Shown one piece after another: positions 40,134 to 62,778 of a DNA stretch of 64,000 bases (positions are counted from its first letter, which is position 1; each line of letters opens with the position of its first letter). Position numbers and translations under genes: made by a program. Source of the stretch: Planctomycetota bacterium (lineage in GTDB: Bacteria; Planctomycetota; MHYJ01; WSZJ01); NCBI GenBank assembly GCA_038060895.1, contig JBBTCT010000026.1:39386-103385 (forward strand), in the 5' to 3' direction. The notes beneath the pieces are model-generated. The model ran no database searches, was not told where the DNA came from, and saw only the letters and a list, made by a program, of their open reading frames with translations.

Positions 40134-40142
40134 CGCGCCCGC

Positions 40143-40185
40143 GTCCCCGTAGCTCAGTTGGATAGAGCGGCGGTTTCCTAAACCG
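40143..40185 (+). pseudogene. 5' half of tRNA-Arg(CCT), truncated after the anticodon stem (att-site remnant)
   Basis: GTCCCCGTAGCTCAGTTGGATAGAGCGGCGGTTTCCTAAACCG, after which similarity stops. Confidence 0.9.
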
Positions 40186-40261
40186 AAGAGCGCAGCTCGG
40201 TCGCCGGCGCAAGATTCGTGGCTCTAAGGACTTGCGGATGCTTCAAATTCGAGCCCGAGAT

Positions 40262-42621: not shown

Positions 42622-42756
42622 CAACGCCTCCGAGAGAAAGCAATTCAGATAGCCCCGATGTTATCCGGGCAGCCCCGCACGACAACCAAGCCTTCCCGTG
42701 CATGGACCTTCTCGCGCTTCTTATCTCGCGTCCCGCTCTCTACAATCCGGCGTCTC

Positions 42757-42830
42757 GTCCCCGTAGCTCAGTTGGATAGAGCGGCAGTTTCCTAAACTGC
42801 AGGTCGTGCGTTCGAATCGCACCGGGGACA
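42757..42830 (+). tRNA. tRNA-Arg (anticodon CCT)
   Basis: Full cloverleaf: GTCCCCG/CGGGGAC acceptor stem, GCTC/GAGC D-stem, GCAGT-TTCCTAA-ACTGC anticodon arm, GTGCG-TTCGAAT-CGCAC T arm. TACAAT at 42741. Confidence 0.97.
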
Positions 42831-42971
42831 TCCGTACAGCTCGGGAGTGGCGTTTCATGTGCGTCCTGGCCGTCGCTGACCGAGGTGTGCGGGGCACCTC
42901 GGTGAGCGGGATCGACGCAATCTTGGATTCTCATGTTCCACCGGGTTATCACGGCGGGGGCGAGGGAGCAA

Positions 42972-45848
42972 ATGGTGCTGAAGCGCGGTTCCGAGTGGAA
43001 CAGGTGGGACCCCCACATTCACACTCCGGGTACGTCCCAGGCCTGCGAGTTCCCTGCCGACGGCTGGGCAGACTACGTCACCAGGATTAACTCGGCAACT
43101 CCAGCCGTGGTCGCCCTCGGCATCACCGACTACTGGTCCATCGAGAACTACGTGGAGGCGCGGCGGCGCTGGCAGGCTCAGGAAATGCCGGGGGTACAGC
43201 TGTTGTTCCCGAACGTAGAACTGAGGCTTTCGGTACACACCGAGAAGGCCAGGGGAATCAATGTGCATCTTCTCTTCTCACCCGATGACCCGTGCCACGT
43301 CGACCTGATCCGAGAGCGGCTAAGGGCGCTGACGTTCGAGTACAAAGCCCACCCGTACCCCTGCGACCGGCCGGGACTTGTTCGCCTCGGTGCCGCACAC
43401 AACGCAACTATTGCTGACGAGCAAAAGAAATACGAAGAGGGAGTGAAACAATTCAAGGTCGAGTTCACCGCGCTCCGGGACTGGTATCGCAAGGACGAGT
43501 GGCTTCGAAAGAACTGCCTAGTTGCAGTCGTGGCCGGGACGAACGACGGCACGAGCGGAGTGAAGAAGGACGATGCGTTCGCCGCGTATCGAAAAGAGGT
43601 GGAGAGGTTCGCGCACATCATCTTCTCCCCCAGACTTGGCGATCGGCAGTTCTGGCTTGGAGAAAGCGCTCTTCCACACGAGGAGTTCGTCAAGGACCAC
43701 GGGGGCCCCAAGCCGTGCCTTCACGGCTGCGACGCCCACGGACCAGCAAGAGTTTTGCTACCGGACGATGATCGGCTCTGCTGGATTCGAGCCGAACCCA
43801 CTTTCGAGGGCCTCCGCCAAGTCCTATTCGAACCCGGCGATCGAGTCCACATAGGTCCGGATCGCCCTCGCCGTCCCCGATCTAACACTGTCCAGTCCTT
43901 GGTTGTTTCACAGGCAGACTGGTTCCCGGCAACTCCAATCGAGCTCAACGAGGGCCTCGTCGCGATCATCGGCCCTAGAGGATCCGGGAAAACCGCGCTA
44001 GCCGACATGATTGCGACCGGCACCGATGCTTATGAGGAGGGGCCCGCTTCGTTTCTCGGGAAAGCGAAGGATCTCGTCACCGGTGCCCGAGTCCAATCCA
44101 TTTGGGAGGGTTCCGATCCTCCTGAGTCCCCTCGCTGTGTCGGGGAACCTCCCGCGGTGGCCCCGCGGGCTCGCTACCTGTCTCAGCACTTCGTTGAACA
44201 ACTCTGTTCGGGGGAAGGCGCCAGCGAAAAACTCGTGCAGGAGATCGAGGCAGTTGTGTTCGCAGCGATCGAGGAACCTGAGCGCCTTGGCACCGTCTCG
44301 TTCGAGGATTTACGGGAAACGTTGACTCGCACAAGTTCCGAACGGATCGCAATTTATCGAGCAGAAATCGTCGCCTGTACCACGGAGATCGCGAGAGAGA
44401 ATTCCTTGAAGGCCACTCTCCCCGCGATCCAAACCAGGCTGGTATCGATCGACGCGGAAGTGAAGGGCGTCGCGAAATCTCTGGCCGCCACCGTCGTTCA
44501 AGGAAAGGAGAAGAAGTTCGCCAAGCTCCAGGAACTGCAGGTTGCGATCGTCAAACAGGAGAACGACCTCGGAACCTGGCGCGACTTGGAGCAAAGGCTC
44601 GCGGATCTGGCGAGCCGCGTTGACCAAACGGAGGAGCAGGCGGAGGAACTCCACGGCCAGTGGAGCCAGGAACTGCGAGAAATTGGTTTCACCGAAGTCC
44701 AGATTGCAGGGTTCCGCCGCAGGTACGTGGGTGACGTTTCCACTCTCATTCGTGAGCGACGTCAGCAGGTCGCGAAAGAAATCGACAAACTCAGAGGTGT
44801 GCCGGCAAGCCAGGATCCGGCCAAACCATCTCTCCCGAAACTGTTGGCAGAGCGGGATGCGGTGCAGAAGGAGATCGCTGGGGATGCCCAGCGAGAGCGC
44901 CAAATCGCCGAATTGCAGCGACGGGATCAGCGATTCAAGCAGGAGTGGAACAAGCTCTCGGCCGAGATCAAGCACATCGGAGGAGTCGGGGCTCGAGTAG
45001 ACGCCCTTCAACGGAGACGACTCCAGAGGTACGCCGCGATCTTCCAGGAGCTACGCCTGCAGAAGGATAGCCTTGCCAAGCTCTACGAGCCTCTTGCGGA
45101 GCGCTTGAGCAAGAGTCCGGAGGAGCGACGCAAGCTGGAGTTTTACCTGCGCCCCGAAATCGATCTGGAGTCGTGGACGAAGCGCGGCGAAAGACTCCTC
45201 GACCTGCGAAAGAAGTCGATTTTTCAGGAAGAAGGGGCCGTCGCGCGAGAGGCAGTCAGGTGCCTGTTCGAAGCATGGAGAAGCGGTGATCCGGCCTTGG
45301 TGGAGGAGGGGATGAAGGAATTCCTAACGCACTTCCCCAACATCAGTCAGCTTCTCGCACCCACAGCTACCCTCCCACAGTTCGCGGAGTGGTTGTTCGC
45401 GACCGACCACGTCCGACTGAACTACGGCATCAAGTATGAAGGCACGGAGATCCAGCGATTGTCACCAGGCGCACGCGGCATCGTCCTGATGATCCTCTAC
45501 TTGGCGCTGGACGAACTGGACGAGCGACCATTGATCATCGACCAACCGGAAGAGAATTTGGACCCACAGTCGATTTACGAGGTTCTTGCCGGTTATTTCA
45601 AGGACGCCAGAAGGAGGAGGCAAGTGATCCTGGTAACCCACAACGCCAACCTCGTGGTGAACACGGACGCTGACCAGGTCATCATCGCTCAGGGCGTGAG
45701 ATCGAAACCGGGAGCCTTGCCTACGTTCACTTACGAGGGAGGCGCGCTCGAAGACCCGAAGGTACGCCAGCAAGTGTGCAGGATCCTCGAGGGTGGAGAG
45801 AAGGCGTTTCGACAACGCGAGCGTCGCTACGGGCTTTCCCAAGACTAG
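42972..45848 (+). CDS. PHP domain-SMC/ABC ATPase fusion (TrlF/Ppl-like)
   Basis: RGSEWNRWDPHIHTPG, GITDY, GCDAH, Walker A GPRGSGKT, coiled coil, LSPG signature, IIDQPEENLD and VTHN. Confidence 0.88.
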   Translation: MVLKRGSEWNRWDPHIHTPGTSQACEFPADGWADYVTRINSATPAVVALGITDYWSIENYVEARRRWQAQEMPGVQLLFPNVELRLSVHTEKARGINVHLLFSPDDPCHVDLIRERLRALTFEYKAHPYPCDRPGLVRLGAAHNATIADEQKKYEEGVKQFKVEFTALRDWYRKDEWLRKNCLVAVVAGTNDGTSGVKKDDAFAAYRKEVERFAHIIFSPRLGDRQFWLGESALPHEEFVKDHGGPKPCLHGCDAHGPARVLLPDDDRLCWIRAEPTFEGLRQVLFEPGDRVHIGPDRPRRPRSNTVQSLVVSQADWFPATPIELNEGLVAIIGPRGSGKTALADMIATGTDAYEEGPASFLGKAKDLVTGARVQSIWEGSDPPESPRCVGEPPAVAPRARYLSQHFVEQLCSGEGASEKLVQEIEAVVFAAIEEPERLGTVSFEDLRETLTRTSSERIAIYRAEIVACTTEIARENSLKATLPAIQTRLVSIDAEVKGVAKSLAATVVQGKEKKFAKLQELQVAIVKQENDLGTWRDLEQRLADLASRVDQTEEQAEELHGQWSQELREIGFTEVQIAGFRRRYVGDVSTLIRERRQQVAKEIDKLRGVPASQDPAKPSLPKLLAERDAVQKEIAGDAQRERQIAELQRRDQRFKQEWNKLSAEIKHIGGVGARVDALQRRRLQRYAAIFQELRLQKDSLAKLYEPLAERLSKSPEERRKLEFYLRPEIDLESWTKRGERLLDLRKKSIFQEEGAVAREAVRCLFEAWRSGDPALVEEGMKEFLTHFPNISQLLAPTATLPQFAEWLFATDHVRLNYGIKYEGTEIQRLSPGARGIVLMILYLALDELDERPLIIDQPEENLDPQSIYEVLAGYFKDARRRRQVILVTHNANLVVNTDADQVIIAQGVRSKPGALPTFTYEGGALEDPKVRQQVCRILEGGEKAFRQRERRYGLSQD

Positions 45849-45942: not shown

Positions 45943-45985
45943 TTCCTGAGCCGCATGTCATGCGTTCGCGTCGCACCGGGGGACA
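45943..45985 (+). pseudogene. Decayed 3' half of tRNA-Arg(CCT) (att remnant)
   Basis: TTCCTGAGCCGCATGTCATGCGTTCGCGTCGCACCGGGGGACA aligns to 42789-42830, and both are followed by TC. Confidence 0.8.
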
Positions 45986-47780: not shown

Positions 47781-49136
47781 TCAGCGCTGTCGAAACACCA
47801 GGCTGTCCTTGAGGAGGGGCGCGCGGCCGGTACTGCCGATGACGCGTCGGTACTCGATCAACTGCTCGTACTGTCCCATGACCGTCATGGTGACTCCGTC
47901 GGGTACGTGACTCAGGTCTTCGCTCGCCTCGAAAGCTACGTAGTCCACCTTTCCGACGCGAATCAGGTGGTAACCAGATTTCGTTCCCTCGTACTCCCCG
48001 GAATATAGACACCAGGTCCCCGGTGCGTTCTCGACAAGCCCGAATTTCCCCCGGAGATCCCGAGCCTCGTACATGATCACGGCCTGAGTTGCCGTTTCCG
48101 GGGAGACTCGGCCTCGCAGCCCCTTGATGATGCCCTTCGCTGCCACCACCAGTTGATCCACTTCGGCCTGAGTGTCTTCACAGGCGATCGAGTGGAGAGT
48201 GGGGTCGACTCCAGTCAGGTCGATTCCGGGCTCACTTCCCATGAACCGCGTCGCAAGGTCCAGCGCGTCCTTGAATCTGCCGGCAGCATTCGCTTCGGCC
48301 GCAGCGGCGTAGTGCTTGAGCCTGAAGTACGGCAGCCGCCTGGAGTACACGCAGGCCTTGTCCGTCACCGCTTTCGCCAGCTTGCGGAAAGGCTCGCGGT
48401 ACTCCGAGACCTTCGGATGTGGCACACCTTGGCAATTCAGCACGTTCTCTGGCTTGTTTTTCTGCATGGTGGAGATGCTCTCGCACAAGGCAACGAGCGT
48501 GGTGCGAAACGAGGCCGGCTCCCAACGAATCGAAGCGACTTGGTCTTTCGCTTTGGCCCAACTCTCCGCCATGCGTCGGGAAGCGGCGTTCCGGTCGGTG
48601 TTCAGGGACTTCTGTCCCATGACTTGATGGTATTCCGCGATGGCATCGACGATCTTCTTCGCCTCAGCCTCGACTTGCCCCTCGAACCAGCCGCCCTGTC
48701 GGGGCATGCCCGGGAGCTGTGAAAAGTCAGGACTCTTCAACTGCCTGATGCACGCCTGCCTGAAGTCAGCTACTTTTTGTACGACCATCGCGTTCTTCTT
48801 CCCGGAGTCGCTGTTACGAACGTACTTCTCGAACTCGTCGAGCAGCGTGTTCAGGGCCGGCGGTTCGGAAGATTCGACCATCTGGCTTGGCATGACAATT
48901 TCAGGCAGCGCGCTCAGGAGAGTCGCCCTTTCCTGCTCGTCAAAGTCCTTCCAGGGATGTTCCGAGTCGAATGCGCGTGCGCGCTCGACCAGAGGCGGGA
49001 GTTGAGTCTTGGAGGAACCGCCACCCGTGCCGCCGCCTCCCGCCGCCGGGCCTGAACTCGGAGCCTTGGAACATCCGCCGATTGCCACCACTGAAATCGT
49101 GAGCAGCCATGCAGGCACGTGAGACCTGACTGTCAT
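47781..49136 (-). CDS. Hypothetical lipoprotein
   Basis: VVAIGGC lipobox, Gly linker, long ORF. Confidence 0.65.
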   Translation of the reverse strand: MTVRSHVPAWLLTISVVAIGGCSKAPSSGPAAGGGGTGGGSSKTQLPPLVERARAFDSEHPWKDFDEQERATLLSALPEIVMPSQMVESSEPPALNTLLDEFEKYVRNSDSGKKNAMVVQKVADFRQACIRQLKSPDFSQLPGMPRQGGWFEGQVEAEAKKIVDAIAEYHQVMGQKSLNTDRNAASRRMAESWAKAKDQVASIRWEPASFRTTLVALCESISTMQKNKPENVLNCQGVPHPKVSEYREPFRKLAKAVTDKACVYSRRLPYFRLKHYAAAAEANAAGRFKDALDLATRFMGSEPGIDLTGVDPTLHSIACEDTQAEVDQLVVAAKGIIKGLRGRVSPETATQAVIMYEARDLRGKFGLVENAPGTWCLYSGEYEGTKSGYHLIRVGKVDYVAFEASEDLSHVPDGVTMTVMGQYEQLIEYRRVIGSTGRAPLLKDSLVFRQR

Positions 49137-49303
49137 GGCGCTTCCCCTTGATTCCGCATTCGACTTGGAAATTCGAAAACCCAGACCCCTCTGAAAGAAC
49201 GCCGAATCTGATCTGGCCGCCGTTGGGAGCCTGGCCGGCGGCGGCCTTGGTGTGGAGCGAGTGCCTCTCGAATAAGGATCCTAGTCCCCGGGACGAACTG
49301 AAA

Positions 49304-49723
49304 TCAAGAGCCGTCCAAGGCCTCGTCGCAAAGAGCGTCCGCTCGGGCGTTGGCCCATCGAGGTAGGTGAAGGAAAGTCACCACGGCGAAACCAGCGACC
49401 AGGCGGTGTGCCTCGGCGGCGAGATCGATGAGGTTTGCGTTCTTCGTCCCGTACTCCTTCTTCATCTGACCGACGAGAACTCGGCTATCACTTCTCACCT
49501 CGAGTGTCGACCGGCCTGGATCCAGCAGACATTTGCGGGCCTGGCGGAGTCCGCGAACCAGTGCCAAGTACTCCGCCTGATTGTTGGTAAGACGACCCGC
49601 GAGTTCGCCCTTGGCCATGAATTCCCTCCCACCTCGGAGGAACACGATTCCGGTCGAGGCCGGGCCAGGATTCCCCCGCGAGGCACCATCGACGTAGACG
49701 ACGAGATCCGGCGGATCGGTCAT
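49304..49723 (-). CDS. Ribonuclease HI family protein
   Basis: All four acidic residues present: YVDGASRGNPG, TNNQAEY, RSDSRV and NARADAL. Confidence 0.92.
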   Translation of the reverse strand: MTDPPDLVVYVDGASRGNPGPASTGIVFLRGGREFMAKGELAGRLTNNQAEYLALVRGLRQARKCLLDPGRSTLEVRSDSRVLVGQMKKEYGTKNANLIDLAAEAHRLVAGFAVVTFLHLPRWANARADALCDEALDGS

Positions 49724-49780
49724 CGTGAATTCTACCCATGGTTACGGTGCCTGTCTGACGTCGAATCTTTCTAGGGCCGC

Positions 49781-50896
49781 CTACAGCGCTCCCGGAAGAT
49801 CGCGACCCTTGAAACTCGGGATTTCTTCTCTCACGAGTCGAGAAACCGCTTCCTTCTTCTCGTTTGGAGCCAAATGTAGATACCGGGCTGTCGTCTTGAG
49901 GTCCGAATGCCCCAGAAGTTCCTTGATCGTGTTGATTCCGACGCCGGCAGCGGCAAGATGGGAGGCGAAAGTATGGCGCAGAGTGTGAAAACTGACGTCC
50001 CGGAGGCCCGCCTGGCGGGTGGCCCTCTGCAGGGCGTGGTACACATCGCGGAAGGGCAGCTCTGTGGCCGGGTTGGTGAAAACGTAAGGGCTAAGCCCGT
50101 CCTTGCCTGCGTGGGGCAAGACTCCCTTCAGCGCCGAAATCAGCGTCTTGTTCATCGGAATTACTCGGTTCCGATGGTTCTTCGTGTTGATCACGGTCAG
50201 CTGTTCACCTACGAAATCGACCTCGCTCCATAAGAGGTCCAGTGATTCTCGACGGCGAAGCCCAGCATTCAGAGCGGTGATCAAGACGGGACGAAGCCAC
50301 TCCTGCGACACGGTGAGCAGACGCTCGACCTCGACCTCGGTCAGGAAACGCCAGCGCTTTCCGTGCTCAGGTCTCTGTTTGACCCCGGTGACGGGGTTCT
50401 TTAAAAGATACCCACGGCGGACCGCCTCTGACATGACGCTCGACATCAACATGAGGGAACGATTCACGCTCGCTGCAGACCTAGGTTTACCACGGCGGGT
50501 CTCCCGCCCCAGCTCGCGATCCACGAATCTTTGAATGTCGCCGGTGATGATCTCCCCGAGCTGCTTTTTTCCGAAGTACAGCAGAAGGGCGTGAAACATG
50601 CTCAGGTATCCCCGAGCGGTGGACGTCGTGCGGGTGGCCAGGACGTGGGCTCGAAATTCATCCTGCAAGAAGTCGACGAACTGCATCGGCTTCAGCGACT
50701 CGACGCTGGTCACGCCGGCGATCTTGGCCTTCGTGATGGCAGACATCTTTGCACGCAGGATCTCTTCCGCCTCCGCCCGCGTGGTGGCGTTGGTACTTGC
50801 CCGCCGACGCCGACCGTTGAGGTCGACGTACGAGACGCACCACGGCTGAAAGCCGCCGAATTTGCGCTTTCGCTTATCCCGGTACACCTTGGCCAA
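49781..50896 (-). CDS. int: Tyrosine recombinase/phage-type integrase
   Basis: GLRRRE (R), TKN (K), FHTLRHTFAS (HxxR), LLGHSD and TARY (Y). GGAGG RBS before TTG 50896. Confidence 0.95.
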   Translation of the reverse strand: MAKVYRDKRKRKFGGFQPWCVSYVDLNGRRRRASTNATTRAEAEEILRAKMSAITKAKIAGVTSVESLKPMQFVDFLQDEFRAHVLATRTTSTARGYLSMFHALLLYFGKKQLGEIITGDIQRFVDRELGRETRRGKPRSAASVNRSLMLMSSVMSEAVRRGYLLKNPVTGVKQRPEHGKRWRFLTEVEVERLLTVSQEWLRPVLITALNAGLRRRESLDLLWSEVDFVGEQLTVINTKNHRNRVIPMNKTLISALKGVLPHAGKDGLSPYVFTNPATELPFRDVYHALQRATRQAGLRDVSFHTLRHTFASHLAAAGVGINTIKELLGHSDLKTTARYLHLAPNEKKEAVSRLVREEIPSFKGRDLPGAL

Positions 50897-50942
50897 CGGC
50901 CTGTCCTCCAGCTGATCATTCAGGTTTGAAGTAAATCGGCCC

Positions 50943-51007
50943 GGGAGGGGAGGCACATGGGTGGCGGAATTCCCGGTCCGTGTACTCTGGACACGTCCTC
51001 CCCTCCC
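50943..51007. other. Structured intergenic hairpin between RT and integrase
   Basis: GGGAGGGGAGG (50943-50953) pairs with CCTCCCCTCCC (50997-51007). Inner CGTGT/ACACG stem. Confidence 0.6.
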
Positions 51008-51043
51008 TACGGCGGGCGGGTTTATGGCGGTCGTCGACTGCGG

Positions 51044-52453
51044 CTAGGGGCTCCCCCTCCTGTGTAGGAGATGAGTGGGGTGCCAGATCTCCTTCCCTGG
51101 CTCGCCCCTTCCGCTGACGTCGGTGACCAAGAGCCTCCGAGCTACTTCTCGGAGTTCCTTCTCTACGTCCGTGTTCCAGTACCGTCCGATGCTGGGTTTT
51201 GTCGCAAACTGCAGTGTCTTAAGGGCTTGCGTGGTACTGGACATTAGCAATCCCGACAGGCTCTCAGCCTTCCCGATGAACAGCTCGTCAAGCATGAGGA
51301 CCTGTTCCCGGATCAAGTCGGAGCCCATCCCGTTGTAGTGCCGGCGAATTCCCTCGTAGATCTCTGGGTCAAACCCCTTCCGCATCACTTTCTCGAGGAT
51401 CTCGAGGACCTTGTTTCCGGCGATGGCGACCGGCCTGCCGTACGCGAATGTCTGCCCCAAGAACTGGGGAGGAAACGTCCAGGACCAATCGCGAGGATTG
51501 TCCGTCGCCAGTCCGAGGGCGAACTTGAACCGATTGAGGTGGCAAGAGGCCGGGTACTCCGTCTTGAGGTATTCCTCGAAGCCTTCCTTCTCGGACTCGA
51601 GTTCGGAAGCGTCCTTTCCCAGGAAGAGGACGTCGTCGGCGAATCGGAACGAGAACAAGCCCTGCTGGGCGAGCCACTTGTCCGCAGCGTCCAGATAGAT
51701 GTTCGCGAACAGCGGCGAGAGCGGGCTCCCGAGCAAGATCCCGAGTTTTGCGTTTGAGAACCGACCAGCCTTCCAGAAGGACATCGAGTGGTGCTCGATG
51801 ATCTGGGAGAGGACGGCCAACAGCCGCCTGTCCTGGATGCGATCAGCCAGGAGTTTGCGCAGGTGGGCGGTGTCGATGTTGTAGAAGAAGTCCTCGAAGT
51901 CCACCCGGAACCAAGCCGTGAACCCGTTCTGAACTCGCTGCTGAATTGCCTCGAGGGCGTCGTGCACGGACCGTCCGGGCCGATACCCGTACGAACTGGC
52001 CTCGAAGCCCGGCTCGAACAGCGGCTCGATCAGCATCCGAAGGGCCGTCTCGATGATCTGGTCGCGCAGGTTCAGGCAGAAGAGCGTCCGCTCCTTGCCA
52101 CCCGTCGACTTGGTGAAGGTGCCGACGTGCGAGGGAAAGTACCGCCTCTCCCTGAGCACCCGGCAGATGGCTCGTTCTTCGTCCAGCCACGCCTGGGGAT
52201 TTTTCGCCAGGTCCTGTGTGGATCTCCCGTCAGGTCCGATGGCTTTCGGGCTTCGGTTCTTGACGACCCAGGCGATCGCTCTGCGGACGAGCTTCCTCCG
52301 GTAGAGCTGCGAATACACGACGCGTGAACGCGAAGGGACCTGCCCTTCGTGACCACATTTCGCCTCGGCAGAAGCCGCGCGGTCCTTCGACCCGGCCGCA
52401 TTGGACGGCAAGATCCCTAGATCCGTGTTCGAGGTTTTATGCGTTGAGCACAT
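51044..52453 (-). CDS. Group II intron-like reverse transcriptase
   Basis: RT0 AIGPDG, RT2 RDQIIETALRMLIEPLFEPGFEASSYGYRPGRS, RT3 VDFEDFF, RT4 GILLGSPLSPLFANIYLD, RT5 RFADD and RT7 FLG. Confidence 0.93.
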   Translation of the reverse strand: MCSTHKTSNTDLGILPSNAAGSKDRAASAEAKCGHEGQVPSRSRVVYSQLYRRKLVRRAIAWVVKNRSPKAIGPDGRSTQDLAKNPQAWLDEERAICRVLRERRYFPSHVGTFTKSTGGKERTLFCLNLRDQIIETALRMLIEPLFEPGFEASSYGYRPGRSVHDALEAIQQRVQNGFTAWFRVDFEDFFYNIDTAHLRKLLADRIQDRRLLAVLSQIIEHHSMSFWKAGRFSNAKLGILLGSPLSPLFANIYLDAADKWLAQQGLFSFRFADDVLFLGKDASELESEKEGFEEYLKTEYPASCHLNRFKFALGLATDNPRDWSWTFPPQFLGQTFAYGRPVAIAGNKVLEILEKVMRKGFDPEIYEGIRRHYNGMGSDLIREQVLMLDELFIGKAESLSGLLMSSTTQALKTLQFATKPSIGRYWNTDVEKELREVARRLLVTDVSGRGEPGKEIWHPTHLLHRRGSP

Positions 52454-52460
52454 GAGATAC

Positions 52461-52688
52461 CTAGGCGCTTTCGCTCGGTGTCGGCCGGTACCCGATCCAG
52501 GCCAAGAGCTTGGCGGTGACGAGCCTGACGCGACGCTTCCCCATCTTGAGGATGCACTCGAGTGGAATTTCGCGACGGCGCATCATGGACCGAAGCGCGT
52601 CGGGTGAAATGCGCATGAAGTCCGCTGCCTCGTCGACGCGCCACAGCAGCGGCTCGGCGGTCACTTCGCGTGCCTGTTCTTTTCCCAT
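52461..52688 (-). CDS. Excisionase-like HTH (HTH_17) protein
   Basis: 75 aa, LLWRVDEAADFMRISPDALRSMMRRREIP, AGGAG RBS. Confidence 0.8.
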   Translation of the reverse strand: MGKEQAREVTAEPLLWRVDEAADFMRISPDALRSMMRRREIPLECILKMGKRRVRLVTAKLLAWIGYRPTPSESA

Positions 52689-52698
52689 TTCGATTCTC

Positions 52699-53484
52699 CT
52701 ACGAACTGGACTTCCTGGAAGTGCGTGCCTTCTTGTGGCTGTTACGCGATGACCCGGGCAGGCCAGACTTGCGGAGGTTCTGAAGGGCTGCGCCCAAATG
52801 GGCCAGCTTCAAGTCAATCCGAGCGTGCTCTTCACGCAGGCGGCTGACCTCGGCGGGCGTCATGTCCTCGAAGGAACGAGGAAGCAGTCCGCCAGTCGCA
52901 CTGAGATCGTCGCAGGCCTTGTTCGTGACGGCGTACGTGAAGGCGGCGTTGGGCATGTCGGTCTGGTGGGCTTCGAGCATCTCCCGAAGCAGCTTGAGGA
53001 TGTCCTCCTCGCCGCCAGCCGTGAAATGGACCATCACCTGACCATCGGAGCCGTCAACGATGCGCCAAGTCAGATCGCGAACGTCAGAATCGAAGGCCCC
53101 CACCCGCGCAGCAAGCTCAATGGCGTCGTGGAACCGTCGCGAGTTCTTGCTTGCCGAAGGGGACACCAAGCGCGAGAGATCGATCAGCGGCTTCGATGTG
53201 AGGAACTCTACTGGTCCCGGCCGCCACCAGCCGCGCCGGCGGGACTGCTCGTCCAGTGGGATCCCCGCCTTCGTTTCGGACTTGATCAGGTCCACCGCGT
53301 CGAGAAAGTCCGTCGTGTTGTACAGCACGATCCTCCCGAGGTTCCGTCCGCGGCTCTTGTGCACGGCAGCTCGCGGAAGCAGATGTTTCTTCGCCCAGAA
53401 GCGCAGGGTCGTAGCCGGCACACTGCACCTGACGGCGAGTTCGTCAAGCGTGCCCAGGTCGGCCTTCAGGTTGTCTCGTTTCAT
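52699..53484 (-). CDS. MerR-like HTH DNA-binding protein
   Basis: TLDELAVRCSVPATTLRFWAKKHLLP N-terminal HTH. Confidence 0.7.
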   Translation of the reverse strand: MKRDNLKADLGTLDELAVRCSVPATTLRFWAKKHLLPRAAVHKSRGRNLGRIVLYNTTDFLDAVDLIKSETKAGIPLDEQSRRRGWWRPGPVEFLTSKPLIDLSRLVSPSASKNSRRFHDAIELAARVGAFDSDVRDLTWRIVDGSDGQVMVHFTAGGEEDILKLLREMLEAHQTDMPNAAFTYAVTNKACDDLSATGGLLPRSFEDMTPAEVSRLREEHARIDLKLAHLGAALQNLRKSGLPGSSRNSHKKARTSRKSSS

Positions 53485-53491
53485 CAACTAG

Positions 53492-53520
53492 AAGTTATTA
53501 CGGGAGTTCCCTTCTGTCAA
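53492..53520 (-). promoter_or_regulatory. Sigma70-like promoter, likely leaderless transcript
   Basis: TTGACA-N17-TAACTT-N7-ATG with no SD. Confidence 0.65.
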
Positions 53521-53570
53521 GAGCGATTCCAATAGATCGTTTTCAGCCAGGACGGTCGCGTCGGGTCAGC

Positions 53571-53628
53571 ATCTCCAGGAAGCCTTCAGAACTGCAATCG
53601 ATTGCAGTTTGGGAGGGTCGCTGGAGAT
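53571..53628. promoter_or_regulatory. Long hairpin containing a perfect 20-bp palindrome
   Basis: AACTGCAATCGATTGCAGTT (53590-53609) inside an ATCTCCAG/CTGGAGAT stem. Confidence 0.65.
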
Positions 53629-53665
53629 CCCCCGCTTCGGACCTTTCCTCACACCTCGCACTCCG

Positions 53666-54322
53666 TCAATCCACGTACTTTCCTCCCTCGAGTAGACGGT
53701 CAGCGTCCGGCCAGCTGACAGCGCCGAAAAAGCAACGATGGCGTCGGAAAGCAGAGGAGACCATGCGCTCGTCCTCCGACGGGATACTCGATCGCCTGTA
53801 GTAGAGAAGGATCGCGGTGAGGTTCATGCTCGACGCCGACAGGGCCGCCACGAGCTCGCTCTCAGAAGTCACCGGTGCGCCTATCTTGGAGAGCCAAGCT
53901 TCGAATCTCCCCCACTGACCTTGGTTGTGCTCCCCGCGCTGATACCGAGCCTTCCGCTTCTGGGTTAGGAACGCGTCCTTGATCATGGTGTCGAGGATCA
54001 ACTGCCCTCGCCCGGCCACGGATTCCCAGCCAGCAAGGTAGGTGAGCAGTTGCTCGACGCCGATGGGCGCGATCGATTTGTCGCGGTCGTGTGGGCCCTT
54101 GTGCCCTTCACACTCCACCAAGCCGATTCGAGGCTCGGGCTTCACGGTGAACAGCGTGAAATCCGGATCCTTGCTGTTCGGGGTCCGGACACGGCGAAGG
54201 CAGACGCAGTTTTCGAAGCCGGGAATCTTCCTGAAGACGTTCTCCCAGTTCGGGTAGAGCCGGAAGTTCGGCTCCGACCTCGTCTCGTCTGTGTCCCCTT
54301 CTTTCAGCGCGATCTTCGGCAC
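53666..54322 (-). CDS. Hypothetical protein, possible PD-(D/E)xK-like nuclease fold
   Basis: DPDFTLF..GLVECEG and QLLTY motifs (weak). Confidence 0.5.
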   Translation of the reverse strand: MPKIALKEGDTDETRSEPNFRLYPNWENVFRKIPGFENCVCLRRVRTPNSKDPDFTLFTVKPEPRIGLVECEGHKGPHDRDKSIAPIGVEQLLTYLAGWESVAGRGQLILDTMIKDAFLTQKRKARYQRGEHNQGQWGRFEAWLSKIGAPVTSESELVAALSASSMNLTAILLYYRRSSIPSEDERMVSSAFRRHRCFFGAVSWPDADRLLEGGKYVD

Positions 54323-54325
54323 GGG

Positions 54326-54835
54326 TTAGGCCTCCGGGTGACTAGCGTTGTTCGCGAGAAGGGCCCGACGCGCGGCAACGCCGGAGTCGAATGAGCCAAG
54401 CACTGCTAGAGCTGCATCGCGGTGCTCCGGCGATGACGGATGAAAGTGGATCTGGGTCTGGTGCTCCGGCCACTGCCCTTTCCGACGTATCTCGTACACC
54501 ACCTCGGCCTCGATCGTCTCCAGTTCGCGTACAGCTGATTTTCCGCGGCGGGGATGGAACCACAGCCAGAGGGATGCGGTCTTCAGGCACCTTCTCCACG
54601 CGTAACCGTAGTAACCAGTCCGCCCGTCGGCGTACCAACCGTAGCGAAGGCGGGCAACAATCGGCTGCCTGGTGATGCCGACATAGACGGGCACCTGGCC
54701 GTCGGTGACGACGTACAGCTTCGGCCTCCGGGCTCTCGCCCGTGCGGACATCCCTTCCTTGGCCCGCGGAACGAGCTTCTCGAACTTGCACTTCGTGAAT
54801 TCGAGATCGAATTCCTCTGGTCCGATCAGGTTCAT
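54326..54835 (-). CDS. GIY-YIG-like nuclease
   Basis: KLYVVTDGQVPVYVGIT..ARL and ETIEAE. Confidence 0.65.
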   Translation of the reverse strand: MNLIGPEEFDLEFTKCKFEKLVPRAKEGMSARARARRPKLYVVTDGQVPVYVGITRQPIVARLRYGWYADGRTGYYGYAWRRCLKTASLWLWFHPRRGKSAVRELETIEAEVVYEIRRKGQWPEHQTQIHFHPSSPEHRDAALAVLGSFDSGVAARRALLANNASHPEA

Positions 54836-54859
54836 GCGGCCCCCCCCTGTCTCCCCGGT

Positions 54860-55126
54860 CTACTTCCGAATCGGCCGGCGACTGCGTCGCGCAACCCTAC
54901 GAGGCTTCCCCAAGTGGGGGCAGACGCCGCCGTGGTCTCGTAGAAACCGATCCACGGCGACAAGATCGCGAACGAGATCCGGGACATGCTCAAGTCGGAA
55001 GAGCAAGTAGCCCATCGTAGCGGCGTTGAATTTCGCCACCCTGTCGATGAACGCGTCGACGGTCGCCTTGTCGACGTCGCGCGCGGCGATCTTCGCGAGA
55101 AGCCGGTCCGGGTCTTGGGTCTTCAT
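54860..55126 (-). CDS. Small hypothetical protein
   Basis: ATGA-coupled to the upstream nuclease stop. Confidence 0.5.
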   Translation of the reverse strand: MKTQDPDRLLAKIAARDVDKATVDAFIDRVAKFNAATMGYLLFRLEHVPDLVRDLVAVDRFLRDHGGVCPHLGKPRRVARRSRRPIRK

Positions 55127-56637
55127 CCCTTCAGCCCGTCCAGCGCCCGGGCGATGTGCGCCATCGCGAAACAGTCGTCGCGATGATAGTCGAGGGCTTT
55201 TCTCCAATCTTCCGTCTCCTGTCCTGCTAGGAATTTCCAGTAGGCCACCATGCTCGTAAATGCGTTCGCGTCGGAGTGACGCCACTTGTATCCCTGCCCC
55301 ACGAACGGAGCGACGAGCTTGATACTCCACGTGGCCGTCGGAATGAACACCTGAGGCTTGAGGCAATCTTTCAGGTCCACGAGCCGGGTGAGCAGACGGT
55401 CAAGACTCGGAGCAATCTCCGGGCATCGACCGCGTGCCTGCTCGATGACGGTCCGTTCATACGGTGACCACATGAATATGGTCGCGTCTTCCAGTTCACC
55501 GATTACTTTCAGCATCGCCCGAAACATCTCGGTTTCGTCCTTGGCCCCGCGGGCTAGGAACTGGTCAAACTTCCCTGTTTCGTGAGACAGAAGGCCCGTT
55601 AAGTAGGCATGCTGTGGCTGTGCGATTTCGGGACCCGTCCAGTCGGTGGTCTCAAAATCTAGGTGAAAGTTCCGTCTGGTCCAGGGGATCGAGACGGTCT
55701 GTCCTGGCGGCACGACGGGCTTGTTGAGCGCGTAGGCCTGCACATTGAAGAAGGTGCTGCGTCCAGTCTTAGCTCCGATTGCCTCGGTCAGCTCCTGCTC
55801 GCTGAATCGCCCGAGGTCCGGGATGCTTGTGACTCCAAGTCGACGCCGGAGTTTCTCGCGGGTTGCCCGCCCAACGTCACCAAGCAGGGTGAGATCCTTT
55901 CGATCCAAGAGCGTCTTGTTCGCAAATTTCCGCCACGGAGTTCCGGTCTTGTCGTACCCAGGCGGGTCCGGGACGAGCACCCCGTCGCGAATTTTCTGCC
56001 ACGAGTCAACCGCCTCGCGAAGTGCAGGAATGTGGTCCAGAGTCTTGAACGCCTGGGTGCCTGAAGGCAGGACGATCTCGAACTCGGCGGGGAGCTCTCC
56101 CTGCAGAACAGCCACGATCAGGCTGTAGGCACACGCCTGGGCGCAGTGATATTTTTTCGTGTCGACCGCGTTTTTTATTTCCAAGACTTTCCAACTGTAG
56201 GAGCCGAACGAGGAGGGCGCGTTGTCGACCCGTACGAGCAGATCGGCTTTTCCGTAGAGCCCCTCTTCGAGCGACCACAGGACAGGCTGCCAGATGGCCG
56301 GCACGCCCTGCCTCATCAACTGCAGTGTGGCGATCATTCCTTCCCGACCCCATGCCGGTGACGGAGTCACGGCCTGCGGGTAGTTCGCCTCCACCCACTT
56401 TCGTTCAAACTCGACACCCCTCCCCATCGCAAGCTTGTCGTATTCTGACTCCTCGTCAACCGCCTCGGCCTTCGGCGCATGGTGGTGACACCAAACCCAG
56501 AAGGGATTCTCAACCAAGTGGTACAGGAGGCTCGGCCGCAGCATGCGTTCGCGGTCGAGCTCGAGACCAGCGGTCGCGCGATCGGTCAGCTGCTCGAGCG
56601 TCAGCCCATTTTCCGTCGCATCGTTCTCGACTGCCAT
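55123..56637 (-). CDS. TM0106 family RecB-like nuclease with C-terminal RNase H-like domain
   Basis: GKADLLVRVD..LEIK..HCAQACAY, HhH region, LDFET, WSPYE, SIKLVAP and YHRDDC. Confidence 0.85.
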   Translation of the reverse strand: MAVENDATENGLTLEQLTDRATAGLELDRERMLRPSLLYHLVENPFWVWCHHHAPKAEAVDEESEYDKLAMGRGVEFERKWVEANYPQAVTPSPAWGREGMIATLQLMRQGVPAIWQPVLWSLEEGLYGKADLLVRVDNAPSSFGSYSWKVLEIKNAVDTKKYHCAQACAYSLIVAVLQGELPAEFEIVLPSGTQAFKTLDHIPALREAVDSWQKIRDGVLVPDPPGYDKTGTPWRKFANKTLLDRKDLTLLGDVGRATREKLRRRLGVTSIPDLGRFSEQELTEAIGAKTGRSTFFNVQAYALNKPVVPPGQTVSIPWTRRNFHLDFETTDWTGPEIAQPQHAYLTGLLSHETGKFDQFLARGAKDETEMFRAMLKVIGELEDATIFMWSPYERTVIEQARGRCPEIAPSLDRLLTRLVDLKDCLKPQVFIPTATWSIKLVAPFVGQGYKWRHSDANAFTSMVAYWKFLAGQETEDWRKALDYHRDDCFAMAHIARALDGLKG

Positions 56638-56766
56638 GTCGCCGACCTTTCCTGCCGAGTCACAGAACTTTCCTCGTCGCGGTGACGAAGCGGCGACCAT
56701 TATCTCAATTCCCGGCTCGAGAATCTCGTCCCTTCTCAGGCGTTCAGCAGGTATCACTTCCGAGTC

Positions 56767-60509: not shown

Positions 60510-60798
60510 CTGGCTGATCGAGGCTTTGTTGTTTTCCTGGGCGTCGTTTCGCCGTTGCCGTCCTCGGGGAGGGCCGGTGAGTGCGCGCTCCGCATTGGTC
60601 GCGCGCGAACCGGCCCTCCCCCCGGACGGGGCCTTGCCCGAAGAGGCGCAAGCGTCAGGATCTCAGTCGAACGCCCGCGACTCTCGAGATCCGCGGGGCG
60701 CCGAAGGGACGAGCACGAGGAACCTCACGCTGACTCCCCGTACCCGTCCTCTTCGTCAAAGACACCGCCTGCTGTCCTCAATATCCGACGATACCGCG

Positions 60799-61476
60799 CT
60801 AGGGGCAGTTCATCGAATCCCTGCATGCCTGCGCGTTTTCAAACCTACGACGGCCCCGCCGGAGAAGCCGCTCGGCCCACTGATTGACCGGACGAAGCCC
60901 AACGTCAACGAGTCCATTTTCAGCTCCGACCGCGAATTTCGCGATGTGCCAACAGTCGAGATCGAGGGCAGCGTCCTCGAAGGCGCCGAGGATCATTTCC
61001 TCCGTGATGTTGATGACGTTCGGGCCAGCCGGAAATCTCCGCGCGCGTTTCTTTCCGAACTTCTGCCCCTCGCGCCAGCACAAGGGGAACCTGCGAGGGA
61101 TTGCCAGCTGCGGACAGTTGAAACCCGGCATCTCGCTGAAGCCGATCTGGAAGGGCGCTCCGCGCCGAAGCAGGTTCTCGACTTCCGCCCAGAAGCCGTA
61201 TCCGTGCGAGAGACCGCTCAGCGACCGCGTCTTGTCCGCCGCGTGACACATTTCGTGAAGAAGCGTGCGCCGAACGCTCCGGTCGGATCCGTGGCGCCCC
61301 ACGTCGATGACGATCCTGCCATCTTCGCTGTTGCAGAACCCGATGCAGTCGCCGTCCGACTTCTTCATCGGCCGGGCCTGCACCAAGAAGGGCGGCACCT
61401 TTCCGTCCCAATAACGATCGTTGTACTTCTGAAACAACTCCGACAACCGCTCACTCGTCCACTTTGCCCTGTTCAT
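60799..61476 (-). CDS. SprT-like zinc metalloprotease
   Basis: LFQKYNDRYWDGKVP, TLLHEMCHA and HGYGFW. Confidence 0.85.
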   Translation of the reverse strand: MNRAKWTSERLSELFQKYNDRYWDGKVPPFLVQARPMKKSDGDCIGFCNSEDGRIVIDVGRHGSDRSVRRTLLHEMCHAADKTRSLSGLSHGYGFWAEVENLLRRGAPFQIGFSEMPGFNCPQLAIPRRFPLCWREGQKFGKKRARRFPAGPNVINITEEMILGAFEDAALDLDCWHIAKFAVGAENGLVDVGLRPVNQWAERLLRRGRRRFENAQACRDSMNCP

Positions 61477-62032: not shown

Positions 62033-62704
62033 TCAACCACGTTTCACCTCCGTCGGCATATCCAGCCGGGCCCGAAATTCGTTGAAGTGCCGTTCGCCAC
62101 AACGAAGGATCCGCGCGGCTCGAACATTGATCGGCTGGAGGCCGACATCGATGAGGCCGAAGACACATCCCACTGATTCTCTTGCCACGGGCCAGTCCGG
62201 GGTGAACTTTGCCGCGTGCTCGATCGCTTCTTTGATGAAGGCTCGGGGCACGTCAAGGAAGGAACTCTGGGGCTCGCACAATTCCAGCTCTTCCGCGGCG
62301 GCTCGGGCATGCGGGAATCTGAGCGGGAGGGCAAGGACAGGATTTCGAAAGCCCGGCATGTCGCCCTCTGTAACTGGATACGGAACGCCCTTCCGCATGA
62401 GCATCTCGACCTGCTCCCAGAAGCCGTACCCGTGCCGATAGTTGCCGGGCCCGGCGGACGCGTCGGCGGCGTGGCACATTTCGTGAAGAAGGGCGTGCAT
62501 GATTTCCGCGTCATTCTTGAAGGTGAACGTGTCGATCACTATCTCGCGGTGGCCCTTGTCGATTGTTCCCCCGCAACCTTCCTTGTAGCTCGACAGCCGC
62601 CGCGCCCGGATCTTGTAGCGCGAAAGCTTCCCGTCCCAGAACGTGTCGTTGAACTCCTCGAACCGCCGCTCCAGCGATGCCCGGTTCCACTTGGACTGCC
62701 TCAT
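62033..62704 (-). CDS. SprT-like zinc metalloprotease (paralog)
   Basis: FEEFNDTFWDGKL, ALLHEMCHA and HGYGFW. Confidence 0.85.
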   Translation of the reverse strand: MRQSKWNRASLERRFEEFNDTFWDGKLSRYKIRARRLSSYKEGCGGTIDKGHREIVIDTFTFKNDAEIMHALLHEMCHAADASAGPGNYRHGYGFWEQVEMLMRKGVPYPVTEGDMPGFRNPVLALPLRFPHARAAAEELELCEPQSSFLDVPRAFIKEAIEHAAKFTPDWPVARESVGCVFGLIDVGLQPINVRAARILRCGERHFNEFRARLDMPTEVKRG

Positions 62705-62778
62705 CTCCGCCTCCTTTGAAGGCCCCGTTGCCGGGGTGGTTAGGCGGGTAAGACCATACTGGCGGCTGGCTGTCAGCG
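62705..62778 (-). promoter_or_regulatory. Bipartite motif plus leader hairpin, copy A
   Basis: CGCTGACA-N16-GTCTTACCCG..CCCCG-gcaa-CGGGG..TTCAAAGGAGG-ATG. Confidence 0.75.

What the first reader, a model, noticed from the sequence alone, without database searches (positions are those of the whole stretch)
49304..53520. Candidate bacterial tyrosine-recombinase retroelement: HTH, Xis, RT, integrase and RNase HI in one co-oriented module
Seen: five minus-strand genes behind one TTGACA promoter, with gaps of 10, 7, ~147 and 57 bp. The RT sits between excisionase and integrase, and both the integrase (R-K-HxxR-H-Y) and RNase HI (D-E-D-D) have intact catalytic residues. Only 7 bp separate xis from the RT start, and no domain V is visible downstream, so this is not an ordinary group II intron insertion. 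No cas1, avd/TR or retron motifs are present. Known: RT + RNase H + tyrosine recombinase is the enzyme set of eukaryotic DIRS/Ngaro retrotransposons, and bacterial RTs normally lack a dedicated RNase H. Inference: the element may make a cDNA (circle) that is integrated by Int, or the RT may be domesticated to assist or regulate integration/excision or capture cargo. I know no described prokaryotic system with this layout.
Basis: partly seen in the sequence, partly recalled or inferred. Interest (0 to 1): 0.9.

Follow-up and report, generated by a model that had tools for sequence, protein, structure and literature searches.

The report
Intron-less reverse transcriptase inside integrase operon
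A lone reverse transcriptase of the group II intron type, but without any intron RNA, sits between the excisionase-like and integrase genes of a genomic island, next to an extra RNase H gene; it looks like captured cargo, not a new kind of bacterial retrotransposon.

Summary
The five co-oriented minus-strand genes are real: a MerR-like HTH, an HTH_17/Xis-like protein, a reverse transcriptase (RT), a tyrosine integrase and RNase HI. Spacing and catalytic residues are as reported.

The RT is a free-standing group-II-intron-like ("G2L"-type) enzyme. No intron RNA is detectable even at E<=10, while the same library finds intron RNA in 15 of 20 loci of ordinary RT relatives. It forms a tiny clade with two metagenomic proteins.

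The retroelement reading finds no support:
- The RT is single-copy in its genome.
- No terminal repeats bracket the module.
- No excision or circle joints appear in four runs.
- 0 of 14 loci of the nearest integrase relatives carry an RT or RNase H.
- 10 of 10 relatives checked sit directly beside a tRNA gene, the usual DNA-island layout.
- The RNase H is a diverged paralogue of the genus's own chromosomal RNase HI.

The module lies in a low-GC tRNA-Arg hotspot with defence-like genes. Best reading: a captured G2L RT as island cargo, function untested. The layout is seen once only.

The parts
52699..53487 (-). 262-aa protein with an N-terminal MerR-type HTH (residues 13-48); the rest is unknown. 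It is the first gene of the co-oriented array.
   Evidence: ORF. Pfam MerR_1 E=1.1e-4, 22.6 bits. No homologue in 7 other genomes of the genus. Only itself is found among 5.8 billion clusters by the word-based search.
52461..52688 (-). 75-aa HTH_17 / excisionase-like DNA-binding protein (candidate Xis).
   Evidence: HTH_17 E=7.9e-5 but below the cut-off. TIGR01764, 17.6 bits, below the cut-off. PHROG 66 'excisionase and transcriptional regulator' 5e-5. A 37.5%-identical homologue lies directly upstream of the integrase in relative L030. Some integrase relatives are HTH_17-Int fusions.
51044..52453 (-). Free-standing group-II-intron-like (G2L-type) reverse transcriptase, 469 aa (424 aa if it starts at the GTG at 52318). 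It has an FADD active site and a helical thumb-like C-terminus, and no intron RNA.
   Evidence: RVT_1 1.2e-19. TIGR04416 158.6 bits against a cut-off of 300; retron and DRT models score <=39 bits. AF2 model pLDDT 81.6. Foldseek top hit is the GsI-IIC group II intron RT over 441 columns. Clade with P0228 and P0080, SH-aLRT 99.
50957..51043 (-). RT-Int intergenic spacer (87-156 nt depending on the Int start). No structured RNA is detectable.
   Evidence: Fold z-score -0.23 against shuffles. No Rfam hit at E<=10.
49781..50956 (-). Phage-type tyrosine integrase with intact R-K-HxxR-H-Y residues.
   Evidence: Phage_integrase 6.3e-33. PHROG 1 integrase 1.5e-71. Motif positions. Nearest relatives are 45-53% identical. 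10 of 10 relatives examined lie next to a tRNA gene.
49304..49723 (-). Second, island-borne copy of a type 1 RNase H (Halobacterium / LC11 / Rv2228c-N type) with an intact DEDD.
   Evidence: RVT_3 4.2e-14 and RNase_H 1.1e-10. PDB 4e19 6.5e-23. The genome has a second copy on contig C27, 52% identical, which is the orthologue of the single copy in all 7 other genus genomes. Invariant D12, E51, D79, D129.
53571..53628 (.). Imperfect 30-nt-arm palindrome between orf218 and the MerR-like gene. It could be an operator or a terminator; its role is untested.
   Evidence: Repeat I2. Fold z = -3.85 (+ strand) and -1.86 (- strand).
45943..45981 (+). Decayed 3' fragment of tRNA-Arg(CCT). It is the nearest att-like remnant on the integrase's downstream side, 3.3 kb beyond the RNase H stop.
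   Evidence: Repeat D3, 82% identical to 42789-42827. Sequence read. tRNA scan score 48.

Best explanation
The module is the regulatory and recombination end of a remodelled, DNA-based integrative island at a tRNA-Arg(CCT) hotspot. It consists of an HTH regulator, a Xis-like protein and a phage-type tyrosine integrase. An ORF-only, group-II-intron-like (G2L-type) RT gene has been captured between xis and int. A diverged extra copy of the host-type RNase HI has come to lie downstream of int.

Any mobility is by Int/Xis recombination of double-stranded DNA, not through an RNA intermediate.

The RT is an intact, probably active polymerase that works in trans as cargo. Its most likely role is an accessory nucleic-acid function of the kind proposed for other G2L RTs: anti-phage or anti-MGE defence, or DNA repair. 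The neighbouring RNase HI may remove the RNA strand of its products.

Shown: gene content, intact motifs, absence of intron RNA, single copy, the canonical layout of integrase relatives without RT or RNase H, the paralogous origin of the RNase H, and the island context.

Inferred: capture of the RT into a former xis-int unit, co-transcription, any RT-RNase H cooperation, and the defence or repair role.
For: RT class:
- The group II RT/maturase model is by far the best family (158.6 bits against <=39 for retron and DRT models).
- Best PDB sequence hits are GsI-IIC RT (6.4e-25) and LtrA (1.6e-19).
- The predicted fold aligns with GsI-IIC RT over 441 columns.
- No intron RNA is found. In the positive control, 15 of 20 loci of ordinary relatives have group II RNA hits.
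- This matches the published definition of G2L RTs. The review PMC8632793 (passages seen) states that 25% of known G2L RTs lie close to known defence systems.

Rarity and clade:
- In 1.84 billion representatives, 6 proteins reach E<=1e-30, self included. Only two of them, P0079 (a fragment of P0228) and P0080, align beyond the palm.
- These form a clade with the window RT at SH-aLRT 99.
- None of the five clade and sister members has a Pfam GIIM domain.

DNA-island nature:
- Integrase relatives lie 15-270 bp from a tRNA gene in 10 of 10 loci.
- 0 of 14 integrase-relative loci have RT, RNase H or MerR-like hits by tblastn at 1e-4. Four of those 14 loci are shorter than 7 kb.
- A Xis homologue sits directly upstream of int in L030.
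- HTH_17-Int fusions exist among relatives.

Context:
- GC falls from about 0.67 to about 0.60 from ~37 kb to the window end.
- tRNA-Arg fragments lie at 36.7, 40.1 and 45.9 kb around the intact gene.
- A Ppl/OLD-like ATPase and a PNP_UDP_1-domain protein lie nearby.

RNase H:
- It is the second copy in the genome. Only same-genus chromosomal genes reach E<=1e-30 among 401 phylum genomes (4 of 401, G000 included).

RT composition matches its neighbours: GC3 is 0.80, against 0.78-0.79 for xis, the MerR-like gene and orf218.
Against: - The layout is known from one organism only, so capture and cargo status cannot be tested by comparison.
- Two RNA/DNA-hybrid enzymes (RT and an extra RNase HI) flank one integrase with short gaps. 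That is suggestive of more than chance, and my reading leaves it only loosely explained.
- The integrase is not next to a tRNA, and no right-hand att repeat was found in the window. The window ends at the contig end. The island's borders, and even whether it is still mobile, are therefore unknown.
- No defence function is shown. No PADLOC model for a complete known RT system fits; the best hit is a generic RT model (167.8 bits).
- The genomic context of the two nearest RT relatives is unseen. If they also sit between xis and int, cargo would be the wrong word.
Confidence: 0.6

Rival explanations
1. A prokaryotic tyrosine-recombinase retroelement (DIRS/Ngaro-like in logic). The operon transcript is reverse-transcribed, RNase HI removes the RNA, and the resulting (circular) DNA is inserted by Int with help from Xis.
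For: All three enzyme activities are encoded in one co-oriented array with short gaps and intact active sites. The RNase H is an extra, island-borne copy. RNA-library contigs identical to parts of int and RT exist, although this does not show transcription.
Against: - The RT is single-copy in the genome.
- No direct or inverted terminal repeats bracket the module. The longest repeats in 40-64 kb are tRNA pieces. Around the RT there are only 10-11-nt exact matches, about what chance gives.
- No deletion or circle joints were seen in 4 runs (these are contigs, so rare forms would be missed).
- The integrase belongs to a family whose relatives sit beside tRNA genes (10 of 10) and lack RT and RNase H (0 of 14).
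- The RT is of the group II type, not the LTR-retrotransposon type.
- The RNase H is nearest to the genus's own chromosomal gene.
- No recurrence was found anywhere in the collections searched.
Confidence: 0.04
2. A relic of a group II intron that once inserted between xis and int. The ribozyme has decayed, and the ORF is a leftover with no present function.
For: The nearest characterised relatives are intron-encoded RTs, and 15 of 20 loci of ordinary relatives carry intron RNA. The architecture is like GsI-IIC RT. In relatives, xis and int are adjacent or fused, so the RT looks inserted.
Against: - The 469-codon frame is uninterrupted, with all RT motifs and FADD present.
- GC3 of 0.80 is typical of a coding region and matches the neighbours.
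- Only 7 bp (or 142 bp) lie between xis and the RT start, so there is no space for domains I-III.
- Nothing resembling domains V/VI is found downstream.
- It shares a distinctive C-terminal region with P0228 and P0080, which implies selection on a small family lacking the Pfam maturase domain.
Confidence: 0.12
3. The RT, possibly with RNase HI, serves the island's own recombination cycle without an RNA-copy route. Examples would be G2L4-like gap filling or end joining at recombination junctions, or priming or regulation of excision.
For: The RT lies inside the xis-int unit and would be co-expressed with it. G2L4 RT is published as a double-strand-break repair enzyme (abstracts seen in the listing). 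A RecB-like nuclease of the TM0106 family lies 2.7 kb upstream.
Against: Tyrosine recombinases need no DNA synthesis. The similarity to G2L4 is weaker than to intron RTs (1.5e-10 against 6.4e-25), and the active site is FADD, not the YIDD named in that abstract. Relatives of the integrase manage without any RT.
Confidence: 0.1

Closest known systems
G2L (group II intron-like) free-standing bacterial reverse transcriptases (Simon & Zimmerly 2008, PMC2602772; Gonzalez-Delgado et al. 2021, PMC8632793; passages read)
   Same: The RT is closest to group II intron RTs but has no intron RNA. The catalytic aspartates are intact. It stands alone as a gene. It lies in an island with defence-like genes, as reported for a quarter of G2L RTs.
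   Different: It forms its own tiny clade with P0228 and P0080 and is not close to G2L4 (1.5e-10). No Pfam maturase (GIIM) hit was found, whereas the 2008 paper notes a conserved domain X motif in G2L3-5. Its position between xis-like and int genes, with an extra RNase HI next door, is not mentioned in the passages I read. Supplements were not seen.
Mobile group II introns (e.g. GsI-IIC, Ll.LtrB)
   Same: Best sequence and fold matches. The domain order is fingers-palm-thumb.
   Different: No ribozyme domains (against 15 of 20 controls). Single copy. No En domain hit. No flanking exon context.
Eukaryotic DIRS/Ngaro/VIPER tyrosine-recombinase retrotransposons (abstracts seen)
   Same: The same three enzyme activities are encoded together: RT, RNase H and tyrosine recombinase.
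   Different: These are separate genes, not a pol-type fusion. The RT is of the group II lineage. The RNase H is a host-type paralogue. The integrase is a phage-type, tRNA-associated enzyme. There are no terminal repeats, only one copy, and a prokaryotic host.
   Same: An RT gene with no role in the element's own transposition rides in an integrative element that targets a tRNA gene, close to int.
   Different: Those RTs are retron or Abi-type with their own ncRNA or effectors. This one is G2L-type, lies between xis and int, and has no identified partner except possibly RNase HI.

Membership tests
G2L-type free-standing RT | RT domain with conserved motifs and catalytic YxDD-type aspartates | tested here: met
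   RVT_1 1.2e-19. Motifs GPDG 73-76, YRPGRS 157-162, LGSPLSPL 241-248, FADD 271-274.
G2L-type free-standing RT | Closest RT class is the group II intron RTs | tested here: met
   TIGR04416 158.6 bits against retron 39.2, Drt2 29.2 and Drt3a 27.8. PDB: GsI-IIC 6.4e-25. Foldseek top five are all GsI-IIC chains.
G2L-type free-standing RT | No group II intron RNA structure around the ORF | tested here: met
   No Rfam intron family at gathering scores in the window or at E<=10 in 48000-55000. In the control, 15 of 20 loci of ordinary relatives are positive.
G2L4 subgroup (DNA-repair RT) | Close sequence relationship to G2L4 RT; YIDD active site | tested here: not met
   G2L4 chains 9d4s and 9d5x score only 1.5e-10, weaker than the intron RTs. 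The active site is FADD. YIDD is taken from the abstract in the listing.
Mobile group II intron | Ribozyme domains I-VI flanking the ORF | tested here: not met
   Only 7 bp lie upstream to xis. The downstream spacer folds no better than shuffles (z -0.23).
Mobile group II intron | Maturase (X/GIIM) domain | tested here: inconclusive
   No PF08388 hit, unlike P0084 and P0093. The model does have a helical thumb-like C-terminus that aligns with GsI-IIC RT.
Mobile group II intron | Multiple copies or homing sites in the genome | tested here: not met
   1 match in the 5.4-Mb assembly, which is 86.5% complete.
DIRS/Ngaro-type tyrosine-recombinase retroelement | RT, RNase H and tyrosine recombinase encoded by one element | tested here: inconclusive
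   The three genes are adjacent, but the element's borders are unknown. It is therefore not shown that they belong to one mobile unit.
DIRS/Ngaro-type tyrosine-recombinase retroelement | Terminal repeats (inverted or split direct repeats) that allow a circular cDNA | tested here: not met
   No such repeats in 40000-64000 or around the RT.
DIRS/Ngaro-type tyrosine-recombinase retroelement | Repeated copies in the genome; RNA-mediated copying | tested here: not met
   Single copy. No joints in contigs of 4 runs. RNA-mediated copying itself is not testable with these tools.
tRNA-targeting integrative island (phage-type Int + Xis) | Tyrosine recombinase with the R-K-H-R-H-Y catalytic set | tested here: met
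tRNA-targeting integrative island (phage-type Int + Xis) | Integrase adjacent to the tRNA/att site | tested here: not met
   Relatives: 10 of 10 lie next to a tRNA. Window: the nearest tRNA-derived sequence is 45943-45981, 3.8 kb from the int stop.
tRNA-targeting integrative island (phage-type Int + Xis) | Flanking direct repeats (attL/attR) | tested here: inconclusive
   tRNA fragments lie at 36.7, 40.1 and 45.9 kb. None lies to the right of the module before the contig end at 64000.
Retron / DGR / CRISPR-associated RT | msr-msd ncRNA; TR/VR pair with Avd; cas1 and a CRISPR array | tested here: not met
   The retron model scores 39 bits against a cut-off of 235. No long near-repeat pair. No Cas1 among the neighbours. 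The only CRISPR-like Rfam hit scores 19.4 bits against 39.

The most novel reading that the evidence does not exclude
The array is a working prokaryotic retro-integrating element. The operon RNA is copied by the G2L-type RT, cleared by the element's own RNase HI, and the DNA copy is inserted by a phage-type tyrosine integrase. That would be a bacterial counterpart, in logic, of DIRS/Ngaro elements. A milder version: RT and RNase HI form a cDNA-producing pair that the island uses for its own spread or for defence.
Probability: 0.04. Interest if true: 0.95.

Novelty: new member of a known kind. Interest (0 to 1): 0.35.

Why it matters
If the retroelement reading were true, it would be the first prokaryotic retrotransposon that uses a tyrosine recombinase. 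It would bear on the origin of eukaryotic DIRS-like elements.

As it stands, the locus adds a very rare clade of intron-less group-II-like RTs: three members found among 1.84 billion representatives of about 15 billion proteins. It shows such an RT lodged inside an xis-int unit beside a dedicated RNase HI copy.

That makes it a reasonable candidate for testing what free-standing G2L RTs do. It also offers a concrete case of how an intron RT can be captured by another mobile element.

Tried and rejected
Context of the nearest RT relatives:
- P0079/P0228 and P0080 come from JGI contigs of 2,041, 2,551 and 4,715 nt.
- Pattern scans with alignment A1 did not retrieve them. The scans returned 15 loci from metagenome contigs, 34 from genome contigs and 5 from viral contigs.
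- All of those are ordinary relatives at <=33% identity over long matches (short best segments reach 36-41%). The 5 viral loci were not included in the tblastn.
- I looked for the contig lengths 4,715, 2,551 and 2,041 among homologues of the MerR-like protein (only itself found) and of the integrase (120 listed, none on such a contig). This gave nothing.

Integrase in genome contigs with the single sequence: no relative found.

Search of the genus for the island's DNA: only tRNA pieces and short weak matches. The island borders could not be set by synteny.

Read laying:
- No joints or loose ends define an excised or empty form. All runs were contigs, which drop rare variants, so this is no evidence of immobility.
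- Stretches without cover in X3, X6 and X11 mean nothing.
- The RNA-library contigs on int and RT do not show transcription or strand.

Complex prediction of the RT (residues 40-445) with RNase HI: no verdict. It is neither for nor against binding.

An exact 11-nt direct repeat at 50864-50874 and 52465-52475 brackets the RT. I considered it as an insertion scar. I rejected it because roughly 0.4 or more such pairs are expected by chance in 1.9 kb (my own estimate).

A structured ncRNA template near the RT: the RT-Int spacer (z -0.23) and the RNase H-lipoprotein spacer (z +0.74 and -1.43) are unremarkable. Only the palindrome upstream of the MerR-like gene stands out.

Supplementary files of papers were not opened. 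The G2L neighbourhood tables of PMC8632793 may bear on whether integrase or RNase H neighbours have been seen before.

Full report
WHAT IS THERE. On the minus strand of 49304-53487 lie five co-oriented open frames. From first to last they are a 262-aa protein, a 75-aa protein, a 469-aa RT, a 391-aa integrase and a 139-aa RNase H.
- The 262-aa protein has only a weak N-terminal MerR-type HTH (MerR_1, 22.6 bits).
- The 75-aa protein resembles HTH_17/excisionase DNA-binding proteins. All its scores are below the curated cut-offs: 23.3 against 27; TIGR01764 17.6 against 28.8; PHROG 66 at 5e-5.
- The RT matches RVT_1 at 1.2e-19.
- The integrase matches Phage_integrase at 6.3e-33.
- The RNase H is type 1 (RVT_3 4.2e-14, RNase_H 1.1e-10).

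The gaps of 10, 7 and 57 bp are exact. The RT-Int gap is 87, 147 or about 156 bp depending on the start codon chosen.

The catalytic residues are all present:
- Integrase: R/K/HxxR/H/Y.
- RT: FADD at 271-274.
- RNase H: D12, E51, D79, D129.

WHAT KIND OF RT. The group II intron RT/maturase model is by far the best family, although below its cut-off (158.6 bits against 300). Retron and DRT models score 39 bits or less.
- The best solved relatives by sequence are GsI-IIC RT (6.4e-25) and LtrA (1.6e-19). G2L4 RT scores only 1.5e-10.
- An AlphaFold2 model built on a 45-sequence alignment has a mean pLDDT of 81.6. Residues 1-35 and 444-469 are unstructured.
- Foldseek aligns the model over about 440 columns with GsI-IIC RT. 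The helical C-terminus is therefore thumb-like.
- Rfam finds no group II intron RNA in the window at gathering scores. It finds none at E<=10 in 48000-55000 either.
- The same library finds intron domains in 15 of 20 loci of ordinary RT relatives. The negative result therefore has power.
- Only 7 bp separate xis from the RT's ATG. The spacer downstream folds no better than shuffled sequence (z -0.23).

This is what the literature calls a G2L RT: closest to intron RTs, without intron RNA (passages of PMC2602772 and PMC8632793).

HOW RARE. A word-based search of 5.8 billion clusters gave 78 hits. The best non-self hit is 36% identical over about half the protein.
- A full HMMER scan of 1.84 billion representatives gave 16,771 hits at E<=0.001, but only 6 at E<=1e-30, self included.
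- Two of those, P0079 (6e-50) and P0080 (1.4e-38), align into the C-terminal region.
- P0079 is a fragment of the 427-aa P0228.
- In a 56-sequence maximum-likelihood tree the window RT, P0228 and P0080 form a clade (SH-aLRT 99). It is sister to P0104 and P0178 (98).
- None of these five has a Pfam GIIM domain, unlike the typical intron RTs P0084 and P0093.
- In 401 genomes of the phylum, 130 have an RT match at E<=1e-10. The best non-self match is 37% identical.
- The own genome has a single match.

IS THE LAYOUT RECURRENT? I could not see the contigs of P0228 and P0080.

For everything I could see the answer is no.
- Among 60 loci of RT relatives, 0 have a hit to the window's RNase H, MerR-like or Xis-like proteins (tblastn, E<=1e-4). 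3 have a distant integrase hit (L076, L082, L084).
- Among 14 loci around the nearest integrase relatives in the phylum, 0 have RT, RNase H or MerR-like hits. These include the 48% paralogue in the own genome and the 45% relatives in G229 and G402. Four of the 14 loci are shorter than 7 kb.
- One locus (L030) has a Xis homologue immediately upstream of int.
- In 10 of 10 of these loci scanned, a tRNA gene lies within about 15-270 bp of the integrase stop codon. Two of these tRNAs are tRNA-Arg(CCT), in a same-genus genome (L036) and in G402 (L035).
- Across 5.8 billion clusters the best integrase relative is 53% identical. Several relatives are HTH_17-integrase fusions.

The ancestral unit thus looks like xis-int next to a tRNA. 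In the window an RT lies between xis and int, and an RNase H lies where the tRNA would be.

THE RNase H. The genome has two copies. The one on contig C27 (52% identical) is the orthologue of the single copy in each of the 7 other genomes of the genus.
- In 401 phylum genomes only 4, all of this genus and G000 included, reach E<=1e-30.
- The 8 chromosomal copies form one conserved set. The window copy is 45-54% identical to each of them, and the DEDD residues are invariant.
- The nearest solved structures are Halobacterium RNase HI, LC11 RNase H1 and the Rv2228c N-domain.

It is therefore an extra, island-borne, probably active paralogue of a host-type enzyme. It is not a retroelement RNase H.

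SURROUNDINGS. GC falls from about 0.67 to about 0.60 at ~37 kb and stays there to the window end, which is also the contig end.
- Around the intact tRNA-Arg(CCT) (42757-42830) lie 5' fragments at ~36712-36768 and 40142-40188. A 3' fragment lies at 45943-45981. These are the marks of repeated integration at one hotspot.
- Between them are a 760-aa PNP_UDP_1-domain protein and a 971-aa Ppl/OLD-like ATPase.
- Upstream of the module is a TM0106-family RecB-like nuclease.
- No tRNA-derived repeat lies next to int, or to the right of the module.
- The genus genomes share none of this DNA apart from tRNA pieces.
- The MerR-like protein has no relative anywhere searched.
- The codon-position GC of the RT (GC3 0.80) matches xis, the MerR-like gene and orf218 (0.78-0.79).

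MOBILITY AND EXPRESSION. The 5-kb module occurs, letter for letter where covered, in groundwater and aquifer metagenomes of three studies.
- One source-run contig spans 42770-60563.
- No joint (deletion or circle) was reported in the four runs laid.
- An RNA-library run holds small contigs identical to 50358-50570 (int) and 51778-52039 (RT), among eight pieces laid, seven of them spread across 44.7-57.5 kb. This does not prove transcription.

VERDICT. The retroelement interpretation is not supported:
- single copy;
- no terminal repeats;
- a canonical DNA-island integrase whose relatives lack RT and RNase H;
- a group-II-type RT;
- a host-type RNase H;
- no recurrence.

The decayed-intron reading is also weak. 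The frame and motifs are intact, and a small clade shares the C-terminal region.

I favour a captured G2L-type RT carried as cargo inside the xis-int end of a remodelled tRNA-Arg island in a defence-rich hotspot (confidence 0.6). A possible but unshown partnership with the adjacent RNase HI remains open.

Paper searches listed only eukaryotic tyrosine-recombinase retroelements. No paper combines RT, excisionase, integrase, genomic island and RNase H. These are listings and abstracts, not proof of absence.

The residual novelty is the unique gene order and the very rare RT clade. The bold reading keeps a probability of a few percent until the contexts of P0228 and P0080 are seen.

Noticed in passing
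window 36712-36768, 40142-40188, 42757-42830, 45943-45981: tRNA-Arg(CCT) hotspot. One intact gene is flanked by two 5' fragments upstream and a decayed 3' fragment downstream. The first fragment coincides with the drop in GC from about 0.67 to about 0.60. This suggests several islands integrated in tandem.
   Followed up: partly
window 42933-45848 (+) and 40342-42624 (-): A 971-aa ATPase matches the PADLOC Ppl model (2.3e-29) and OLD/Gabija/Lamassu-like ATPase models. A 760-aa protein has a PNP_UDP_1 phosphorylase domain (4.5e-11). Both are defence-like genes lying between the tRNA pieces.
   Followed up: partly
window 55123-56757 (-): A 544-aa TM0106-family RecB-like nuclease with an RNase_H_2/DUF2779 C-terminal part (TIGR03491 4.1e-40). 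It lies in the same orientation, 2.7 kb upstream of the RT.
   Followed up: no
window 53571-53628: Imperfect palindrome with 30-nt arms and a perfect CTGCAATCGATTGCAG core, between orf218 and the MerR-like gene. It folds far better than shuffles on the + strand (z -3.85). It could be an operator, a terminator or a recombination site.
   Followed up: partly
window 50864-50874 and 52465-52475: An exact 11-nt direct repeat (GCGCTTTCGCT) brackets the RT gene, one copy at the end of xis and one inside the 5' end of int. It is about what chance allows in 1.9 kb, so I gave it no weight.
   Followed up: partly
window 60558-60629: A 30-nt-arm inverted repeat (83% complementary). The contigs of the source run break here, and one run shows a back-joint with 3 extra letters. 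It is possibly an invertible or repeated segment.
   Followed up: no
window 61165-61270 and 62393-62498; 62033-62872 (-): Two stretches 1,228 bp apart are 79-84% alike, suggesting paralogous neighbouring genes. One of the genes is SprT-like (3.8e-7).
   Followed up: no
window 54326-54835 (-); L022 (G402:C54): The 169-aa protein of unknown family, two genes upstream of the module, has a 49%-identical homologue in another genome of the genus. It is the only island protein besides Int and RNase H with such a relative in my tblastn.
   Followed up: no
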